Assembly: GCF_033153115.1 (NCBI RefSeq)
Contig: NW_026889772.1
Coordinates: forward strand, 3,286,001-3,350,000
From: Saccostrea echinata
Taxonomy: Eukaryota
DNA length: 64,000 bases
Direction: 5' to 3'
The translations under genes were made by a program, and so were the position numbers. Every line of letters starts with the position of its first letter. Within the stretch, counting starts at the first letter, position 1. Of this stretch, positions 9,810 through 60,703 are shown piece after piece. Under the pieces are notes generated by a model. That model was given only the letters and a program-made list of their open reading frames with translations. It searched no databases and was not told the origin of the DNA.

Positions 9810-11995
9810 TCAGAAATCATCTTCATCACTAAAGGTGACATTTTGTTTTTCACTGGAATCAGTAGAATCTTCAAGTTCAGATTTAAAGTTCTCCTCGTCT
9901 GGTGTCTGGGTATCCGTGCTCCAATCTTCCGTTTGAAACACCTCAGGAGCTTCATTAAATGACACCCTTTTGCTGCTGCGAGTCATGTTCTCCAGATCCA
10001 AATTAAGAATATCTACATTTTTAAGACTGTCCTTCTCGGTTTGTGAATTGTTGGATTCATTACTGTTGTCATCTCCATTTTGTTCACTTTCTTTTTTATC
10101 ATTGCCTTTATCATCTTTCAAAGATTCTTCTTTCTCTTCTGTTGATTCATCTTTTTCCTTCGACTTTTCCTCTTCCTTCTGATCACGATCGGTCGATGTT
10201 TGTTCTGAATCAGATTCATCTTCTCTCTGAGAACTCTCGTTAAAATCTAGGTTAAGTTTTTCTATCACAGGACTTTCATCACTATCTTCCGTTTTTTCTC
10301 CCTCAAATTTTGTATTTTCAATTTTATTTAAATTGTCAATTGAATTAAACTGAGTCAAAAACACTTTACTTTCCTCACTCTCTCCTTTCTTCGATTCTTC
10401 ATTTTCAGTTTCTTCACTTTCGGATTTACCTCTGCTACTCTCTGTTTTATCTTTGTTTTCATTTTCCCTTTCGTCTTCTGTCTCTGGTTTAGAGTCGTTA
10501 GCTGGAGGGCTTCCCATTCCTACACAAGTCGCAGGTTCTGGAACATCACTACCCTGTGGCTCAGGTCTCTCTTCACCCTCCAACCTCTCCCAAATCTGCT
10601 CTGCAAAAAGCTTCCTCTGTCTGGAAGCTACATGTTTAGGTACTCCTGCCTCAGCAGGGAAAGGCACTTTAAAAGGATTGGAAGAGTTCTCCTCATTCAT
10701 CACATCTTCCAGTTTAGGAACCACAGCCTGCCGTGGAGATCCTGAGGATTTTTTGGGAGGTGGAACCCTTCCTGCTGGGGCTGTTTGAGGACGCCTGGTA
10801 CCTGTTGGAGGTCGTTTTATTGCCTTACCAGAAACGTTTATTTGACCTCCAGGATTTGGATTTTCAGTCCTGTCCGATTCCAATCGGTAAGAATAACGAA
10901 CATTTTCGCTAGCTTCCGACTCTTTCCTTTCTGAATCAAAATCTGCACCTCCAAATTTCTTATTTAATTTATCATCAATTCTTTTCACTCCAGTATCAAT
11001 TCTCTTTTTCCCTTCCAGAACATTGTGGACTCTTTTTCTTGCAATATCTGGAATAAGTTTGTTAAGATCTGGGTCAGATTTAGACATTTGATCTTGTTTA
11101 TGCTTTTCTTCCAACTCTTTTTTCTTCTGATCTTGTTTCCGTTTCTGTGAAACCCATTGATCATATGACATCCTGTTACCTTCAGCACTTTTGGATCGTG
11201 ATGATGACGCAGTTTTTGGTCGTTCTTGGTCAGATTTTTGGCCATGTGGACTGTTACCATTTACAGCAAGCTTTATTCGTCCTGCTACAGGGCGCTTGTA
11301 AATGAACTTCGAGGTGGGTGGATGTGGAGTGGCCAAGAGCGCAGAGTCATTTGGTGATTTGTTTGATTTCTCTCTTATATTAACATTTGTTTCGGGAGTT
11401 CCTTCCACTTTTATTCCACCAGGCGTAGAAGGATCTTTGCGTCTAAGAGGAGCAGATTCTGGACGGATGTTCTTCTTTTCATTTTTCTCTTCATACTCCT
11501 TCAGAATCCGTTTATGTTCTTTCCTTTCTTTTCTTTTCTGATCTGCAATTTCCTTATTTTTTTGATCGGCCCACTTTTTGTAAATTTTCTGAGCTTCAAG
11601 CCTCTTCTCAAATTTTTCATTGGCTTCCAGCACCATCTGCTCTCGCTCTGCCCTCTTCTTTGCCTTTTCTTCTTTAACTTTCTTTCTGTAGAGTTTATCT
11701 TTCTTTTTTAGCCAGATTCTGAGCTCCTCTTTGCTGGAATACTTCAGGTGGTAGTTCATCCTCTCCTGTTCATCTATATCTCTGGGCGTTGTCACTGCTG
11801 TGCTGCCCGTTTTCTGTGTAGTTGCAGTGTTGTGTGAGTGAAATGATGAATTGTCTATGGTTGACTCGGAATTCTTGCGCTTAGACCTTTTCTTATGTTT
11901 CTTAGAAAGATATTCATGTTTTGGATTTCTGCTGTCTTTGATAATGTTCTGCATGGATCGGTAAGCCATATCCGTGGATTTGTTGGACAGTTCAC
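9810..11995 (-). CDS. Gene 1, last coding exon: charged coiled-coil with W-x-x-x-K motifs (CCDC181/CCDC34/MAP9-like) and a long acidic tail; full CDS 3177 nt, 1058 aa
   Basis: 719-aa ORF 9810..11969 extends upstream to acceptor tttgtAG|GT GAA CTG at 11995. Motifs LRIWLKKK, IYKKWADQK and SYDQWVSQK resemble those of microtubule/cilia-associated coiled-coil proteins. Family assignment is tentative. Confidence 0.85.
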
Positions 11996-12445
11996 CTACA
12001 AAGAAATTCCAGTGTTTAGTTTTTATGTCTAAATGATCATTGATTGTATCTTATGTACATTCATTAGTATATTAATAATATATGAAAGAAATAACTATAA
12101 CGACTGGAAATCAATTTTCGGAAAAATTTCAAACCAATACTATTATAAATATACATGTACATTATTTTGGAAAGTGTTCCAAATTTTGTGGTATCACATG
12201 CAATTTTTTTCTGAATATTTATTTTGCTTCTCAAAGAAGTGTACAAGGCACAAATATATGTTATAAGTTTCTAAAATGCTTCAGCCAATTTTTTTTCGAA
12301 TAAAATCATATTCTGGACCTTAAAATTGGAAAATAAGATTATATAACCCATTTCCCGTGCCCAATGTTAAATACCTTTTTTTTTTTCTTGAGATATCCCG
12401 TTGTTTTCCTAAATTTCACTTTAAGAGAGAAATAAATTACATTAT

Positions 12446-28862: not shown

Positions 28863-30059
28863 CTATGTCAAATATTTAATTATCTTGATTTTACCAGTAC
28901 TGAATTCGCACACGTACAAATTGCCGTTTAAGGAATTCACTGCGATATCTCTTGGATCCATGAGGGAGATGTTATCAATATATGTGACAAAATGTCCATC
29001 TATGTCAACAATATGAATGCAGTGAATCTCTGAGTCTGCTATCAAAATTTGACAAAGTTGGTCTGTTGCTACACCCTGTGGTGAAAACTCCCCATCTTTC
29101 CGGGTGTCGTGGGTTCCACGGTAACTAAATCGGAACTCCCCGGCACGGTTCACCACCACCAACGACCTGTGTGCCGTCAGTGATACACAAATATCCCCAT
29201 TTCCATTTTCCGTCATGAAGATATACCCGCCCTGGAAAGAAAACAAGTCTTCTCCTTGTTCATCATACTGAATCTCTTTTTTTATAGACCTGACATCGTA
29301 CTGGATCACTTTGCATTGGTTAAGATGACTGTTAGTCATGCATACCAATAAATCTCCCGAATCCTTCCCACAAATGGCACGTGGTATCCATTCCTGCAAT
29401 CTGATGACAATGTCTAATGTTTTATCATCCATATTGTACTTGCTAACTGTTTTGTCTTTCCAATCACACACATAGAGATCTTTTTCGCCATTTGCAGCTA
29501 TATCGGATGGATATTCACCGGAAGTGACGTTTACACTGTCTTTCACAGCACCAGAAAAGACCATGCACGAAATGGTGCTTTCATACAGGACAGAAATCCA
29601 TATTTTATCTGGCTGACAAATTTCAATGCGGTCTAAATCCGAGTTATTTGTATCTACCTCTAACAGAAGAACAGGGTCACCATTCTCAGTTACTGTACTA
29701 CTCGTATCTTCAATCTCAACAACATCGCTATCTTTCACATCTTCACTGTGGTCAGACAGTTCAATAAAATCATGATTCTTGTGACGCCCAGAAATTATGC
29801 ATTTATTACAAACTGGAGTCTCACATTGTACACATTGAATAGCACATGTGTTACCCTCGTGTGTCTTACACGTTGTAAAGGGCCGCTGAGAATCTTGGCA
29901 TCCAGACTGTACCAGAGACGTATGGCCCTGGTGTACATGGATTGACATGCACGGTTTGCAAAGTTTGACATGACATGTGTTACAGTGTGTCGCAGCAGCT
30001 TCTTTGGAACCAGCGCATGCATCACATCGGACGAGGTCCTGCGCTAGTGAGCTCGCCAT
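28863..30059 (-). CDS. TRIM-like protein with B-box1, B-box2 and an NHL/beta-propeller domain (TRIM2/3/71-like, bivalve-expanded type), 398 aa, single coding exon
   Basis: B-boxes CDAC..HCNTCHVKLCKPC..H and CKTH..CVQCETPVCNKC..H..H. NHL repeats (PSDIA, PRAIC, PQGVATD..ILIAD, PRDIAV..LYVCE). Acceptor tttcAG lies 3 nt upstream of the ATG, so a 5' UTR exon lies further upstream. Confidence 0.9.
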   Translation of the reverse strand: MASSLAQDLVRCDACAGSKEAAATHCNTCHVKLCKPCMSIHVHQGHTSLVQSGCQDSQRPFTTCKTHEGNTCAIQCVQCETPVCNKCIISGRHKNHDFIELSDHSEDVKDSDVVEIEDTSSTVTENGDPVLLLEVDTNNSDLDRIEICQPDKIWISVLYESTISCMVFSGAVKDSVNVTSGEYPSDIAANGEKDLYVCDWKDKTVSKYNMDDKTLDIVIRLQEWIPRAICGKDSGDLLVCMTNSHLNQCKVIQYDVRSIKKEIQYDEQGEDLFSFQGGYIFMTENGNGDICVSLTAHRSLVVVNRAGEFRFSYRGTHDTRKDGEFSPQGVATDQLCQILIADSEIHCIHIVDIDGHFVTYIDNISLMDPRDIAVNSLNGNLYVCEFSTGKIKIIKYLT

Positions 30060-30104
30060 AGCCTGAAATTAAGATCTTTATGCTTAATGCTTAATGAAAT
30101 ATTA

Positions 30105-52590: not shown

Positions 52591-52635
52591 TACCTAGAAA
52601 AGAGTTACTTTTTCTATAGCAGTAAACCTGCTCAC

Positions 52636-52799
52636 CGAGAAGACGACTCCTAATTCCTCTCTTTGTATTATACTACCATCCTCAAACGTGAGACATCCTT
52701 CTGTTTTGTTAAACATCCTCGCCATTCTTGTTAACCAGACCTCAAAGAATCCACATTTGATCAGAATCAGCTGGTCATCTTGATTTAGTTCAGGAAAAC
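52636..52799 (-). CDS. E78: E78 exon E: LBD (GFPELNQDDQLILIKCGFFEVWL...)
   Basis: Within ORF 52594..52809. Carries the F..L...DQ..LIK signature. Flanked by ttacAG and TCG|GTGAGC. Confidence 0.92.
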
Positions 52800-54049
52800 C
52801 TGTAAACAATAATCATATAAATATTACATACCATGTGTACATTATAGACTTTTCTCCCTATCCTTTTATTCAATGACATGTTTCAAACTTGTTAGTCCCC
52901 TACTGGTGAAATGGAAGGGGACTATAGATTTCCTTTTAATAAGTCCACCTTTGTTTGTCAGTCTGTATGTACCACTTGGTATCTTGAGCAGATTTTTGGT
53001 CAGTGAGCATTCACAGAAGCATGTGCACAGTCACTGACTGTGAATCTGATTCCTGTGGTGCCTCAATTCAATGTTAACATCTGTACACATACACATTTAC
53101 CCTTCTATGATACTCATATCCATTTTGATCCTATATCCCAGAGTTTCAATTTACAAGACAAAGCTTAGCATGGAATAGTCAACTTAAACACAAAGGATTT
53201 TCCGTGAATTCTAAAACAGTATTTTTTCACAAAATCAGCATTTTGTATCCCCAATTAAATCCAGGAACCTTCTTTTGAACATTTAGTATGAATCTTACAA
53301 TTCAATCTTGTCAATTCTGGCAAATAGTTCGAGAAAAAAGACTTTTAAATGAAAATATATCCTAACCTACTGAGCTTTCTTTATAGTCATTTCATTAACT
53401 GAGATGGTGATAAAAGAATGCAGATGAGTTTAAATTAAGGAATATCAACTGCATCCTACAAATGAAATTTTAGCTCATAGAAAGAAATCCCATTTTCTTC
53501 TGCAAAAACTGAAAAGGGGGGTGGGGGGTCCTCATACCAATTAAAATGGAATTACGACTCTTAGTGTAAAGGCATTCTTAAATGTACAAAGAGAAATCAT
53601 TATAAAGGATCTAGGGGAACATCATGTTCTTTACAGTGATTTACACCATGTCCTGTGGTCCCCTTGTTATAGTGAGGTCACTGACACTGGTCTTTAACCT
53701 CATTAACAGAGGCAAATTTTACTAATGATCCTAACTACCAACAGAATGACAATATCAAAGGTAAAGATAGTTTTTTTTTCTAAAATAACCAGATAACAGT
53801 GAATAAAGCTACCAGCATTTATCATTGATTTTGTGTAACCTGAACTCTATTTTAACTGAGAGGTTGAATTTAACTACCAGTCTGCAAGGGCATTAAAACA
53901 CTAGGAAATTAAATGCATTCATTCTGTTCCAACCTCTTCTGTCCACTTTCCAAAGAAAACATCTGATGTGTGGAAATCACTTCTACTTTTATTGGTAGTA
54001 AGGAGAATTGCAGTCTTCAAGTCTTTCTTTTATTGATTTTTGAGGTTAA

Positions 54050-54981
54050 CGAGGTTCGCTCCTGAGCTTTTGAGCAGATTTTTGTCTTAACCTATATTTA
54101 AAAAATTCTGCATAATGTTTTAGTTCTAACAATAAATTTGGAATCTACAATACCGATTAAACAATATTCAGTTAAAACTCCATGATTAAGTTCCATACCA
54201 AAAGCATTAAGAGAGGAACTATATCTTGTGGCGGATGGATTTTTAGAAGAAAATGATCATTTTTTCTCTTTCGAAGTATTTGAAATAAGTTTGGATTCCT
54301 ATTTTTCCATGCAGTCTGCACACAGACTTATTCTGTGCCGTGAACTGTTTCATGCTGGTCCTAAATTATATATTAAATAAACTATCATGAATTTTATCAT
54401 CATATTCAATAAATATAGCAAATATATTGCGAAAATACAGAAAAAAATAGCCCTAACTTTTGCTTAAAATTAGCACTATTTTAGTATTATCTAAAAATTA
54501 ACATCACAGGCCCCCACTTTTCATTTTATTTTCTGAATATACAAGATATTTTTAACCATTCTACTTAAATTCAGTAAAATGTCATTACTTTCAAATGATT
54601 TTATTGCTTGTTAAAATTTTTAATGCCAGAAAAATGATATTTTTGAGTGCAAAAAGGTCAAATAATTAAACATGCGAAGTAATTTAAAGAAATTTTTGTT
54701 GTCACAAATTTTAATGTATCTATTCAAAATGAAATAAGACTGTGTTTGTTCCCATAATTTATTTGAATAAAAAAAAATATTGGAAGGAAAACTTTAAAAA
54801 TTCAATCATGTGTATGATGTATTTGCAGTGCAAAAAGGTCAAACTAAGTGCCCTGTAGCGCCAAAAGAAGCGCATTGACCCCCATTTTTTGTTTTCATTT
54901 TAAATTAAGCTACGTGTGTAGATTCTAAAAATATACTTGATAAAAAATTCTAATTACTTTTGATGGCAGGATCCAACCTCC
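54050..54981. mobile_element. TTAA-flanked non-autonomous DNA transposon (Kolobok-like)
   Basis: TTAA-CGAGGTTCGCTCCTG ... CAGGATCCAACCTCC-TTAA, imperfect TIRs. Confidence 0.6.
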
Positions 54982-55589
54982 TTAAGGTGAAGTCTACACT
55001 TCTAACTGGGCTTAGCTTGCCCTGAATGACCTTGACCTCTATTCTATGTGACCATTACTCCATTTGAATATGTGACATTTATTCTATATGACCTTCTGAT
55101 GTATAACCTCTACTACGTATGACCATTTCCATGTGCCTCTCATTTGCTCTATTTTTGACTAGTGGATAAAACACTTTATAAGATTTTTAATCATTATGTC
55201 CTTCTTCCTGAATGATTAATTACTCTCCCTGTGTGACTTCTGTTCTTTACTCTCCAATGAGCTCATGAATACATTAGTAGAACAACAATTTCTCTACTTT
55301 GTAGTTGGGATTAGTTATTGATATCATTGAGCTCATGGAACCAGACTTCCCTTTTTTTTTTAATCAAAATTTCAGTGATTTTTCAAAATCAATTCCTTCA
55401 TCAAAGTAAGAATACTTGTGATTATATCAAAGTATGTATACCTGTGATCATATCAAAGTATCCCCAATTATATCAAAGTATGTATACCTGTGATCATATC
55501 AAAGTATCCCCAATTATATCAAAGTAAGTATACCTTTATCAGTTTTGTTAATCTCTTGACACTGTTTCATGATTCATGGATGAAATTAA

Positions 55590-56208
55590 CTAGACAGACC
55601 ACATGGACTATTTCAATTATTCCTCCAGATCTCTGACCTGTTTTGTAAGCTCCACAACGCTATTGATTGCAGGGTTGATGAAGCCAGCCTGAGAGTGCCA
55701 CAAGGGCTATTCCTATTATTCCACCTTACCTGTGACCCATTTTGCAAACTCCACAACACTGTTAATGGCTGGGGTGATGAAAACCCCCAGATAGTGCCAC
55801 ATGGACAATTTTTATCATTCCACCTTACCTGTGACCCGTTTTGCGAACTCCACAACACTGTTAATGGTGGGGGTGATGAAGATCGCCAGATAGTGCCACA
55901 TGGACAATTTTTATCATTCCTCCTTACCTGTGACCCGTTTTGCGACCTCCACAACACTGTTGATGGTGGGGGGTGATAAAGCCAGCCAGACAGACCACAT
56001 GGACAATTTTTATCATTTCTCCTTACCTGTGACCCCTTTTGCAAACTCCACAACACTGTTAATGGCGGGGGTGATGAAGATCGCCAGATAGTGCCACATG
56101 GACAATTTTTATCATTCCTCCTTACCTGTGACCCGTTTTGCGAACTCCACAACACTGTTAATGGCGGGGGTGATGAAGCCAGCCAGACAATGCCACATGG
56201 ACAATTTC
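55590..56208 (-). repeat. 99-bp tandem repeat, about 6 copies, made of the last ~82 nt of E78 exon D plus ~17 nt of intron
   Basis: CTTACCTGTGACC recurs at 55725, 55824, 55923, 56022 and 56121 (period exactly 99). A degenerate distal copy lies at 55590-55700. Confidence 0.95.
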
Positions 56209-56270
56209 TGGGCCTCGAGTTCCTCGTCACTGAACTGAACGGGTGTGGAAGGAATGGAAATCTGTTGCAT
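56126..56270 (-). CDS. E78: E78 exon D: LBD helix 3 (MWHCLAGFITPAINSVVEFAKRVT)
   Basis: Within ORF 56112..56294. Acceptor tttcAG, donor CAG|GTAAGG. VVEFAK is a nuclear receptor signature. Confidence 0.9.
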
Positions 56271-57029
56271 CTGAAAGAATGAATGACAGTACATGTATTT
56301 AAATCTGTAAGGAATTCTGCTCCAATTTAAAGATAATCAGCAACAACATATGGCACCATAAAGACATATTCTTTAGAGATATTCTATCTTCAATACATAA
56401 ATAAAAATCTCATATTACACATTTTAGTAGGGAAGTGACAATTGTCTGGTTATACACTGAGTTATACCGGTCAATTAACAATGTTCTGTTGTAAATATTT
56501 CTCCATCAGTGTGGTGATGATATTCTAAGTTTTACATAGGTTATATAACTTGTGCAAGTTAGTTCCTGGTTTTCCTCCGACTGGAGTTCCTTAATCTTTT
56601 TAATTGTCAACAGACATGAGGCTTGCTGAGTGTTTACTGACAATTAAAAAGTTCAAGAACAAGAGGAGAAAAAACGGTAACTAAAGAGCAAACATTATGG
56701 AACCCAATTACTGCATGACACAAAACAATATTACATAGCACATTGTGACATCACGGGGTTGTCCCTAAGACAACTTGGGGAAAACCCATATATTTTCCCT
56801 TATAGGCCAGAGAATTTCCCATCCTATGATATAATCCCCAGTTATTCTGGTATTCCCCCTCAACCCTGTTAGGGGAGGAACCCCAGACCCCCCTTCTACT
56901 TTTTTATTGTGCCCTGCTATTTCAATTCTTAGGGACAACCCTGCATCATAATAAGTGTTCTCTAACATATTAGAAAACAAAAAGAGAATCACTGTATGGG
57001 AGTGATGAAACAAAGCCGTAAAGAGAGAA

Positions 57030-57502
57030 ACATATTTCTATCTCAGTCAAGTCAGTGAAGTGACACTAGACAACGTTTTACATATTTCTATATCAGTGAA
57101 GTGACACTAGACAACGTTTTACATATTTCTCTATCAGGGAAGTGACACTAGACAACGATTTACATATTTCTATCTCAGTGAGGTGACAATTGACTATGTT
57201 TTACATATTCCTATCTCAGTGAGGTGACAACTGACTATGTTTTACATATTTCTATCTCAGTGAGGTGACAATTGACTATGTTTTACATATTCCTATCTCA
57301 GTGAGGTTACAACTGACTATGTTTTACATATTCCTATCTCAGTGAGGTGACAACTGACTATGTTTTACATATTCCTATCTCAGTGAGGTGACAATTGACA
57401 ATGTTTTACATATTTCTATCTCAGTGAGGTGACACTGGACAATGTTTTACATATTTCTATCTCACCGAGGTGACACAGACAATGTTTTAAATACCAGTGA
57501 GG
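57030..57502 (-). repeat. 41-bp tandem repeat, about 11 copies, abutting the E78 exon C donor
   Basis: Unit CTCAGTGAGGTGACAATTGACTATGTTTTACATATTYCTAT (57181 to 57222). It shares CAGTGAGG with the exon end. Confidence 0.93.
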
Positions 57503-57703
57503 AGGGCTTTCTTCTGAGGTTCTTTATTCTATCTTCAGTGACCAGGCAGTTTGTGTGGTGGGCCTGGGAGATGTTTAAGATGATGTCGTAGATGGCTAGC
57601 TGTTTATTCTCCAAAGCCGACTGGTCCATATTGCAATCTGTGGAGGTCACGCTACTGTCGTCCTGACTTTTAGACCTCTTTGGAACTCGACCATAACGAA
57701 CAG
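57495..57703 (-). CDS. E78: E78 exon C: hinge (SVRYGRVPKRSKS...AIYDIILNISQAH...RRKPSSL)
   Basis: Overlaps ORF 57462..57650. Acceptor ttacAG. Donor CTG|GTATTT is required for the phase 0 join to exon D. Confidence 0.85.
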
Positions 57704-58021
57704 CTGTAAAATAAAATGTAATTTATTCAAAATAGGCTCATAAGACACTCATTTATAATAAGAAGGAATATTTTTTATTATTTCCAAACAATCTTCTCAC
57801 ATTGTTTACAAATAAAGTTGTCATAGAGAACTTGGTTATTAGAGTAGTGCTCCGTTATGAGGCAGTAAAAACTTCTTATCTTAATGTCACATCTCTGTCT
57901 TAGGACAGAATTTCATCTTATTTCTCAAAGATTACATTTCAATGTTATCATAGCACTATATTTTTCAACTTCCTTAGCATATCTTATTACTGACTTTGAG
58001 TATGTACTACAGTGATTACGG

Positions 58022-58386
58022 CAGGGTTAGAAACTCCCTAAAATTACAACTCACAAATAATTGTGAGTACCAAGAAAGTGAACTCGCATTTTTATAAGAC
58101 TACTCGCAATTTTCATACAAAGTTAAATTTATATAAATTAAATACATGTAACTTAAGGAAAAAGTAACTACTGTACTATACACAAAATACAACTACAGTG
58201 TGACTTTTATTTAAATTACTGATTTAAATCAAAAGTATTGTGTTCTGTCATATTATATAATTTTCTACAGTTTCAATGCAAAAAATATCAACTCGCAAGT
58301 TTTTGCGAGTTACCTAATTTTTAACTCACAATTTGGGAATTCTAACTCGCGTTTTGCGAGTTGTATATAGTGAATTTCGAACCCTG
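58022..58386. mobile_element. CAG...CTG MITE with apparent 5-bp TSD TACGG
   Basis: CAGGGTTAGAAACTC / GAATTTCGAACCCTG termini; internal AACTCGCA repeats. Confidence 0.75.
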
Positions 58387-58728
58387 TACGGGTCATGAAG
58401 AGAATACATTGTCATATGTATACTCCCTCAAATCTACATGAAAACTGTCCTAGTTAATGCACTTTGAAGTACACACTTAAGAATTTGTTTATACAGTTAT
58501 GAAGAACTAATTTTATAAAGTAGTAATTACATGTGTACAAAGATTTTTCTTAATAGGAACAATTGTTTTTCTGTACTAGAACTGGACTGTACTGAATAGC
58601 TAGAAAAAAAATATGTAAACAGTTATAATTTGATAAAAATTATTTTCAGTTACAAAAAAAAAAATTTGATTTTATAATGCCCCTGTTATAGTGTCAGTTT
58701 ACAATATAAAAGATCCCCAGATACTCAC

Positions 58729-58870
58729 AGTCTCTGGACATGCCCACAGCCAAACATTTTTTAAATCGACAATACTGACATCTGTTGCGACTAAGACGTA
58801 TCACCATACATTTCCCGTCGCGTAAACACCTGTATTCAATCTGCTTCTGTATACTACGGCGAAAGAATCC
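58729..58870 (-). CDS. E78: E78 exon B: second zinc finger (GFFRRSIQKQIEYRCLRDGKCMVIRLSRNRCQYCRFKKCLAVGMSRD)
   Basis: The IQKQIEYRCLRDGKC D-box region is characteristic of E78/Eip78C. Flanked by ttttcAG and T|GTGAGT. Confidence 0.92.
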
Positions 58871-59099
58871 CTGAAAAAAAAAAACAGAACATACTTCAAT
58901 CTATTGGTCACTCTATTGTTTACAGTTACGGCTATGAATTCTCTCTGTGAGGGATATGTTTGTACATATGTTTTATTTAAAACATTTCAACAGAGCAGGG
59001 ATTTTTTTTTTAGATATCTATCTAGAAACTGAATAAAGCTGCAAAACATTCAACCATTAACTTTAAAAACACAATCCTGATGATAAAGGAATTTCTTTT

Positions 59100-59420
59100 C
59101 TTTCACCCCTCAGAGGTAGTCTCTGTACAAACATGTTTATAATTTCTTACCCCTCACTCTCCTCCCCCCCCCCCCCTCTTCACAGGAAGTGACTGTAGAC
59201 ACATTTATACCCAGTAATTTCTGATCTGAACCTCACCTTACACCCCTCACAGGAAGTCTCCGTACAACATGTACAAACATGTTTATAATTCTGACCCCTC
59301 ATTTCCTACCCCCCCCCCCCCCCCCCCCCCGCCCCATCTCCAGGGAAGTGATTCTGTAGACACACATATTTATAATTTCTGATCTGGACCTCACCTTACA
59401 CCCCTCACAGGAAGTGACGC
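59100..59420 (-). repeat. Degenerate tandem duplication (about 4 monomers of ~75-80 bp, with poly-C runs) of the E78 exon A end and donor
   Basis: AATTTCTGATCTGRACCTCACCTTACACCCCTCACAGGAAGT occurs at about 59216-59257 and 59374-59415. Further CAGGAAGT..GTAGACAC..TTATA monomers lie between and beyond them. Confidence 0.85.
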
Positions 59421-59522
59421 CATAATGGAAGCCGGAGGCTCGGTCTCCACACACCTTACACGGGACGTACTGTTTCTGGCTGTTGGAGTCAGCGGCAGCC
59501 TGAATGTTCCCAGCCTGCTCCT
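59395..59522 (-). CDS. E78: Nuclear receptor E78 (NR1E) exon A: first zinc finger ([25 protein letters not shown])
   Basis: Hand translation. Acceptor tgtttAG, donor AAG|GTGAGG. The exon starts in phase 1, so an upstream exon exists; none was identified in the window. Confidence 0.9.
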
Positions 59523-60703
59523 CTAAACAAACACAAAATTAGATACTTTGAGAACAGAGACAAAATATTTGAAGAAATCTGAGAGTCTTGTATAATGCAT
59601 GCCAACATTTTACATTCACCAGTGCAAAAAGGGTGATCTCATTTTTTTTATATAAAATTTATGGTTAGTGCATAAATGTTAATTCTGTCTTCAATGGTTG
59701 AAGGTGTCTATCACAAGGATTATATACTGAATTCAAATTGAGCTGAAAGAGAAATAATGGAAAGCTTTTATAACTTACATATTCAATTTAAGATTTTTTT
59801 CTGTTCTGGTACACTGTATTAAATTTCACTCAACTGCTAAAGATAACCTTCTCCTAGCCATAAGACACCTATAGGAAATGACAGTTTTATCTTACAAATG
59901 AAAACTTGGAGTTTAAATGTCCATGTAAATAATGTAGCAGAACTGGAGATTGAAGACTGGGAAGACATTTTCCATTATGGAGATAAATTCTATATTCTTA
60001 AAAATAAAAAGCATATTTTATTTCCTCAGTTAGGATTATTGTGTATCTAAGAAAAGTATTGAAAATGTACTCTCTAAATTTATACATTTCTATGTATGTA
60101 TTGCAATAAGGCAAATGAGCAAGGTCAGTAAACTTTTTTTCAAATCACAATTCTTGAATACATATGTAATAAATACATCAAATTAATATCTCTCTATTTG
60201 TGAATTCACTGTTTACTTTGAGCGCATTATTATTTTATGGAAAGGGAGAGTTGCAAATCACATGGAGAACACAGTTTTTTGTCCCAAGCTTTCACTGAAA
60301 GTGGGGGATATTAATTTCAGTGTCTGTCCGTTCCTCCATCTGTATTTCTGTCTGTCTGTGACACTTTCGTTTCCGTGCGATATCTCAAGAAGCCTTTGGA
60401 CTTTCGCCATGAAATTTTACATAACAACTCCCTATGGCCTAAAGAAGAACCCTATTGATTTTGAGGACAAATGGCAAAGGTCAAGGTCGTAAATTCATAC
60501 ATTTTTTCTGTGTGTAACACTTTCGTTTCGGGGCAATATCTCAAGAAGCTTTTGAGCTTTTGCAATGAAATTTACACCATAACTCCCTATGGCCTCTCTC
60601 TTTCCTTTTTCTGAGAAGTTTGGATTATGCTCGGGCTTAGGATAATTGCCTACTGAAAGAATAAATTTTGCCATCTTTCAATGACTCTAGTGTGTTTGAA
60701 ATA

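What the first reader, a model, noticed from the sequence alone, without database searches (positions are those of the whole stretch)
55590..56208. E78 LBD exon D end repeated in 99-bp units, leaving four extra intact CAG|GTAAG donors
Seen: each copy reproduces the helix-3 coding sequence (K L S M W H . L A . F I T P A I N S V V E F A K R V T) and a consensus CAG|GTAAGG donor at 99-bp spacing. There is no polypyrimidine-AG between copies, so these are not cassette exons. In-frame TGA TAA follows the first donor. Inference: use of any downstream donor would give an NMD target or a receptor with DBD and hinge but almost no LBD, which could act as a dominant-negative. How four equally strong donors are ignored or used is an open question.
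Basis: partly seen in the sequence, partly recalled or inferred. Interest (0 to 1): 0.7.

Follow-up and report, generated by a model that had tools for sequence, protein, structure and literature searches.

The report
Repeated splice donors in oyster E78
The end of one exon of an oyster-type bivalve's E78 receptor gene, splice signal included, is copied head to tail into the next intron, but every assembled transcript seen uses only the first signal, so this is likely a harmless example of a repeat type already described in human, lancelet and chicken genes.

Summary
Observation confirmed. A 99-bp unit (last 82 nt of E78 exon D plus 17 nt of intron) is repeated on the minus strand, leaving four extra CAG|GTAAGG donors and two decayed distal copies. 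TGA TAA follows the first donor in frame. The functional reading is not supported. In the 4 of 6 laid runs that bridge exons D and E (3 samples, 2 studies), contigs join only the first donor, 56126, to exon E. The copies carry a frameshift, a stop and radical changes, with no significant sign of coding constraint. A close relative lacks the array. Similar junction repeats lie at two more E78 donors and at 7 splice junctions of neighbouring MCM8. This is the known class of junction-spanning minisatellites: human F7 and lamin B2 (100-bp unit), amphioxus 'mirages', chicken 'exon stuttering'. The scan has noted it before on other DNA, including twice in this genome. Rare or stress-induced use of the downstream donors is not excluded, because contigs drop rare forms.

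The parts
56126..56270 (-). E78 exon D (145 nt; end of hinge and LBD helix 3), authentic donor CAG|GTAAGG at 56126
   Evidence: RNA contig joints 56270/57495 and 52797/56124 (cut +2); translation aligns to E78 orthologs
56109..56207 (-). Unit u0: last 82 nt of exon D plus first 17 nt of the intron, the source of the repeat
56109..56114 (-). In-frame TGA TAA at intron positions +12 to +17
56010..56108 (-). Copy u1, donor at 56027, 91/99 identical to u0; Arg to Gly in the AKR motif
55911..56009 (-). Copy u2, donor at 55928, 92/100; -1/+1 frameshift pair; Phe to Val
55812..55910 (-). Copy u3, donor at 55829, 92/99
55713..55811 (-). Copy u4, donor at 55730, 87/99; Arg to Trp
55614..55712 (-). Decayed copy u5, 75/99; stop codon; in-register donor lost; weaker CAG|GTCAGA at 55638
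55515..55613 (-). Oldest, strongly decayed copy u6, 60/101, only partly called by TRF
   Evidence: 0 of 500 shuffles reach its score
52636..52799 (-). E78 exon E, the acceptor partner of the first donor
   Evidence: PF00104
57495..57703 (-). E78 exon C (hinge)
57052..57493 (-). 41-bp minisatellite (10.8 copies) starting at the exon C donor; unit resembles the exon's last 8 nt plus the intron start, donor GT lost in the later copies
   Evidence: read from the sequence
58729..58870 (-). E78 exon B (second zinc finger)
59395..59522 (-). E78 exon A (first zinc finger)
59100..59260 (-). Copies of exon A's 3' end: one with intact AAG|GTGAGG at 59237, one decayed near 59111
51090..51195 (-). E78 exon F
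   Evidence: 106-nt gap between contig pieces
50423..50685 (-). E78 last coding exon G to the stop codon

Best explanation
The array is an intronic minisatellite made of copies of E78 exon D's 3' end and splice donor; the assembled transcripts splice at the first donor and remove all copies with the intron, and the copies are likely a neutral by-product of local tandem duplication. Steps: (1) shown: unit anatomy, four intact donors, decay from proximal to distal; (2) shown in contigs: first-donor splicing; (3) inferred: origin by slippage or unequal exchange across the junction, with later turnover homogenising the proximal copies; (4) inferred from human F7: the spliceosome commits to the most upstream functional donor next to the exon's real acceptor; (5) inferred: any leak to a later donor carries TGA TAA and would likely be removed by NMD, which makes the array cheap to tolerate.
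For: One search lists four joints in 52600-59700, all canonical; D-E is 56126 to 52799 in X1, X5 and X6, and X2 shows the same contiguous pieces (4 of 6 runs laid; X3 and X4 do not bridge). The joining contigs skip the whole array. Copies u1-u4: 16 distinct changes against the exon, 7 synonymous and 9 non-synonymous, not significantly different from neutral (p 0.07 to 0.17 by transition weighting), plus a frameshift pair and a stop. Donor invariance is not significant: 78 of 99 columns are invariant, so nine invariant donor columns have about 0.12 chance, and u5 and u6 have lost the site. Seven unnamed ENA gene% like exon D (P0106-P0108, P0110-P0113) read on into a different intron; P0108 runs about 156 codons in frame with no helix-3 repeat. 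The same arrangement lies at E78 exons A and C, at 7 MCM8 splice junctions and at two exons of a nearby DEAD-box gene. Precedents: PMC1557585, PMC3087553, PMC3902484, PMC12954441.
Against: Logan contigs drop rare variants and depths were low (5-15), so minor or NMD-degraded isoforms would be missed. The RNA comes from other individuals, and none was shown to carry the array; that they do is inferred from its age (distal copies 60-76% alike, against about 2.5% difference in a neighbouring intron stretch, 8 of 322). Synonymous changes are somewhat in excess (7 of 16 against 23-28% expected). All four young copies keep the donor intact. In human IFI6 (6-16) and CBS, proximal pseudo-donors are used (PMC1557585 introduction). 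Scanning was shown in mammalian cells, not in molluscs.
Confidence: 0.86

Rival explanations
1. The downstream donors leak at a low level or under stress, giving stop-containing E78 transcripts that NMD removes, so that copy number would tune E78 dose without having been selected for it.
For: Donors are identical to the real one from -3 to +6. The stop lies 85-382 nt before the D-E junction. Proximal pseudo-donors are used in human 6-16 and CBS. Heat shock activates latent donors in human cells (PMC3510495, abstract only).
Against: No alternative joint (table cut to 15 of 82 rows; table complete, 4 joints). F7, lamin B2 and PDGF use only the first donor.
Confidence: 0.09
2. The array is a selected regulatory device that produces an NMD target or a receptor with DNA-binding domain, hinge and helix 3 only, predicted to act as a dominant negative.
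For: The predicted product keeps both zinc fingers and ends after residue 211 of 384. Four donors are intact.
Against: Not seen in RNA. Absent in a close relative. One extra donor would do the job; four give the same protein. Same arrays in unrelated neighbouring genes. No paper on such an E78 isoform in molluscs appeared in one search listing.
Confidence: 0.03
3. The array is an assembly artefact.
For: No independent DNA run covering it was found.
Against: All copies differ from one another (5 to 39 mismatches of 99 in fixed register) and decay in order. It is single-locus in a 15.9-Mb contig. Contigs of run X4 match the neighbouring 41-bp array at 97% or more.
Confidence: 0.02

Closest known systems
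Human F7 intron 7 37-bp VNTR, with lamin B2 (100-bp unit, 10-15 copies), PDGF (81-bp), CBS and 6-16 minisatellites (Borensztajn et al. 2006, PMC1557585; abstract, introduction and discussion read)
   Same: First unit spans the exon-intron boundary; identical donors follow; only the first is seen in use. Lamin B2's unit is almost the same length.
   Different: Mollusc, not mammal. The unit is mostly exon (82 of 99 nt) and keeps frame; F7's holds 4 exon bases. Copy-number polymorphism and function of the pseudo-donors were not tested here.
Amphioxus 'mirage' repeats in Adh3, globins BflGb6 and BflGb9, troponin C, PGBD5 (PMC3087553 and PMC3902484, passages read; the original Adh3 paper was not held)
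   Same: Long units (150-160 bp in globins) that carry coding sequence and splice signals, 81-100% alike, terminal copies less homogenised, no effect on splicing.
   Different: Bivalve host; haplotype length variation and somatic instability not tested here.
Chicken 'exon stuttering' (Hron et al. 2026, PMC12954441; abstract and passages read; lead from an earlier scan note)
   Same: Exon edge with its splice site copied into the adjacent intron; clustered by gene and region.
   Different: Chicken cases sit on GC-rich dot chromosomes; this region is AT-rich (GC about 0.33-0.37).
Latent 5' splice sites and suppression of splicing (PMC3510495, abstract only)
   Same: Intronic donors preceded by an in-frame stop and normally unused.
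   Different: Here the latent sites are copies of the real site; stress activation untested.
E78 / NR1E nuclear receptor (oyster CgNR1E; PMC4070562, passages read)
   Same: 82% identical to Pecten E78 over 384 aligned residues.
   Different: Thr replaces the Pro of KR[VI]P that all 18 aligned orthologs keep; the array-less relative also has Thr.

Membership tests
Junction-spanning minisatellite (F7-type / mirage / exon stuttering) | Head-to-tail tandem units whose first unit spans an exon-intron boundary | tested here: met
Junction-spanning minisatellite (F7-type / mirage / exon stuttering) | Splice signal reiterated in the intron | tested here: met
   four CAG|GTAAGG copies
Junction-spanning minisatellite (F7-type / mirage / exon stuttering) | Local origin: the unit occurs only beside its own exon | tested here: met
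   one match in the genome, (the tool scores only the best candidates)
Junction-spanning minisatellite (F7-type / mirage / exon stuttering) | Main transcript spliced at the authentic, most upstream donor | tested here: met
   4 of 6 laid runs bridge, all at 56126; contigs only
Junction-spanning minisatellite (F7-type / mirage / exon stuttering) | Copy number varies between alleles or individuals | not testable with these tools
   no DNA run found; absent in an unnamed relative
Junction-spanning minisatellite (F7-type / mirage / exon stuttering) | Pseudo-donors work when the first donor is mutated | not testable with these tools
   needs a minigene
Tandem cassette or mutually exclusive exon array | Each copy has its own acceptor and is included in mRNA | tested here: not met
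   17 nt between donor and next copy; internal CAG is C-rich and T-poor; no inclusion
Regulated alternative 5' splice site coupled to NMD | Alternative donor gives a premature stop more than 50 nt before a later junction | tested here: met
   (rule taken from mammals, recalled)
Regulated alternative 5' splice site coupled to NMD | Alternative junction seen in RNA | tested here: inconclusive
   not seen, but contigs drop rare and degraded forms
Regulated alternative 5' splice site coupled to NMD | Event conserved across related species | tested here: not met
   relative with 98% exon D identity has a different intron start and no array
Recursive splice sites (AG|GT) | Pyrimidine tract before the AG|GT | tested here: not met
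   6-7 of 20 pyrimidines before each copied CAG|GT
E78 / NR1E | C4 zinc-finger DBD, hormone-receptor LBD, best hits named E78 | tested here: met
   no tree was built

The most novel reading that the evidence does not exclude
The extra donors are switched on by stress or stage in the oyster, so that array length tunes E78 output by NMD or yields a DNA-binding-only receptor; with the stop-free 81-bp MCM8 array 35 kb away, this region would then show how an invertebrate chooses among identical donors with and without an in-frame stop.
Probability: 0.07. Interest if true: 0.55.

Novelty: new member of a known kind. Interest (0 to 1): 0.15.

Why it matters
For E78 itself it probably matters little: the normal protein is made. 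Two practical points remain. Such copies mimic coding exons and gave five extra tblastn matches in MCM8, so they can mislead gene models and short-read mapping in oyster genomes. And this neighbourhood offers a natural pair for a test of donor choice outside mammals: the E78 array has a stop before the second donor, while five downstream donors of the MCM8 81-bp array are in frame with no stop. My literature searches (open-access library only) listed no report of such arrays in bivalves.

Tried and rejected
No RNA holder was listed as on record; the laid contigs were taken as RNA because they join exons at GT-AG introns. X3, guessed as DNA, is spliced. Lack of cover on the array in X3 and X4, which do not bridge it, is no evidence. 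A small extra depth in X5 near exon A's copied donor at 90% likeness vanished at 97%. Helix-3 Thr as a product of the array: rejected, since the array-less relative has it. Selection on the copied donors: not significant. The first substitution count used a wrong realignment of u2 and was redone; the 'C-copy' donor row used a wrong coordinate and is not used. Genome-wide enrichment: in 88 loci picked by Pfam match (zf-C4, Ras, Hormone_recep; 88 of 272 matches), arrays overlapped 3 of 176 match ends, in 2 loci; many ends are not splice junctions and some loci overlap or look duplicated, so this shows presence at a low rate, not enrichment. A PDB sequence search with the DEAD-box exon found nothing. 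The original mirage paper could not be read. No supplements were read; those of PMC12954441 and PMC3087553 may list more cases. No structure or complex prediction was run.

Full report
Setting. The window is G000:C23:3286001-3350000 of a 923-Mb assembly. The gene lies on the minus strand. The hinge exon finds molluscan proteins named E78 as its best named hits. Seven exons joined by coordinates give one open frame of 384 residues, 82% identical to Pecten E78, with zf-C4 and Hormone_recep matches. The neighbouring MCM8 exon is 96% identical to Ostrea edulis MCM8, which points to an oyster-type bivalve; earlier scan notes on this genome call it a rock oyster (not checked here).

The observation. 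TRF finds period 99, 6.2 copies, at 55599-56207. The unit is the last 82 nt of exon D plus the first 17 nt of the intron. Donors CAG|GTAAGG stand at 56126 (authentic), 56027, 55928, 55829 and 55730; these are all 5 CAGGTAAG in the window. Identity to the source falls with distance: 91/99, 92/100, 92/99, 87/99, 75/99, 60/101, each above all 500 shuffles; the next 99 nt are at chance. The array is single-locus in the genome search. TGA TAA follows the first donor in frame; any later donor would stop the frame after residue 211, 85 to 382 nt before the D-E junction.

What the RNA shows. Nine runs were listed, none on record as RNA; six were laid. In one search the joint table for 52600-59700 is complete and holds four canonical introns; D-E joins 56126 to 52799 in X1, X5 and X6. 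X3 and X4 do not bridge. So 4 of 6 runs (3 samples, 2 studies) bridge, all at the first donor, skipping the array. Limits: contigs drop rare forms, depth was 5-15, NMD would deplete the alternatives, and the animals sequenced were not shown to carry the array. That they do is inferred: the distal copies are far older than the difference seen in a nearby intron stretch (8 of 322).

How the copies evolve. Against the exon, u1-u4 carry 16 distinct changes, 7 synonymous and 9 non-synonymous; neutral expectation is 23-28% synonymous, p 0.07 to 0.17. This is a mild synonymous excess, not significant, and the copies are not independent. u2 has a frameshift pair, u5 a stop and no in-register donor, and conserved Arg and Phe are hit. 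With 78 of 99 columns invariant, an invariant 9-nt donor has about 0.12 chance. Shared variants are mosaic among copies, as expected from unequal exchange (inference). Seven unnamed ENA gene% like exon D read into a different intron, one for about 156 codons without a helix-3 repeat, so a close relative lacks the array. They are not independent species.

Acceptors. Each young copy has a CAG after 13-14 pyrimidines in 20, 70 nt after the previous donor, which could in principle give a 29-nt micro-exon; but it has 4-5 T against 8-16 in the gene's seven real acceptors, and no inclusion is seen. The copied CAG|GT sites have no pyrimidine tract (6-7 of 20), so they are not recursive sites.

It is not special to this exon. 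In E78, exon A's end is copied with an intact donor at 59237, and a 41-bp array starts at exon C's donor. In MCM8, 13-40 kb beyond the window end, 8 of 17 short-period arrays touch a coding boundary (7 splice junctions, 1 stop codon) against 4.0 expected by random placement (p 0.03); 12 of 17 lie within 30 nt, against 4.9 (p 0.0005). That test is rough: boundaries came from tblastn and some were set by hand. One MCM8 array is an 81-bp unit with seven extra ATG|GTAAGT, five of them in frame without a stop; another has ten extra CAG|GTAAGT. A DEAD-box gene further on has two such arrays (the second assigned to the same gene by its reading frame only). Elsewhere the rate is lower: arrays overlapped 3 of 176 Pfam match ends in 88 loci, and array density was 18.3 per 100 kb here against 5.0 and 6.0 in two 100-kb controls.

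Mechanism. Shown: anatomy, decay gradient, first-donor splicing in contigs. Inferred: a local duplication across the junction grew into a minisatellite; the first donor wins because it is the most upstream functional site after the real acceptor, as shown by mutation for human F7 (PMC1557585); leaks would carry a stop and likely be degraded. I put 0.86 on neutral and silent, 0.09 on unselected leak, 0.03 on a selected device, 0.02 on artefact.

Comparison. It works like, and by the testable features belongs to, the junction-spanning minisatellites. The F7 paper's introduction lists lamin B2 (100-bp unit, first donor only), PDGF (81 bp), and CBS and 6-16, where proximal pseudo-donors are also used. 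Amphioxus 'mirages' carry long exon parts and leave splicing intact. Chicken 'exon stuttering' is the same arrangement. Copy-number variation and pseudo-donor function could not be tested. The scan's index holds 104 findings with these words in at least 37 genomes, and two in this genome; these are unchecked notes, not support. Searches listed no bivalve report in the open-access library.

Verdict. Real, correctly located, and ordinary: a new member of a known kind. Interest 0.15.

Noticed in passing
L004:250-L005:3060 and flanks (G000:C23 about 3362900-3390000): MCM8 gene with arrays at many exon edges, among them an 81-bp unit with seven extra donors, five in frame without a stop (Walker B exon, PF00493), a 62-bp unit with ten extra donors and a 42-bp unit with 38 copies.
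   Followed up: partly
L011:8138-9663 and L009:9478-L010:10 (minus strand): DEAD-box helicase exons followed by 50-bp x30 and 53-bp x10 arrays; in the first the copies read CAG|GTAAGT, a better donor than the exon's own CAT|GTAAGT.
   Followed up: partly
window 56126-56135 (minus strand): E78 has Thr where all 18 aligned orthologs have the Pro of KR[VI]P at the end of helix 3; an array-less relative also has Thr.
   Followed up: partly
window 59100-59420 (minus strand): Exon A's 3' end and donor are copied 158 nt downstream, with a third decayed copy; TRF missed it; no use seen.
   Followed up: partly
window 14447-17278: 75-bp x38 array that begins inside the 3' end of a 303-codon Arg/Ser-rich open frame (18131-17223, minus) and repeats its last codons and stop.
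   Followed up: no
L043:1154-1770: Another nuclear-receptor zinc-finger exon with arrays on both sides: repeated acceptors upstream, repeated AAG|GTAAGG downstream.
   Followed up: partly
L074:1668-3198: 35-bp x44 array overlapping the end of a Ras-family match, unit holds TAG|GTAAT.
   Followed up: no
window 55400-55535: 46-bp and 26-bp repeats directly distal to the 99-bp array, with CAG|GTATAC on the minus strand.
   Followed up: no
window 28866-30068 (minus strand): 401-codon open frame with B-box and NHL matches.
   Followed up: no
window 9813-12050 (minus strand): 746-codon charged open frame with no Pfam match.
   Followed up: no
G000:C23:3286001-3549000: Minisatellite density about three times that of two control regions (18.3 against 5.0 and 6.0 per 100 kb).
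   Followed up: partly
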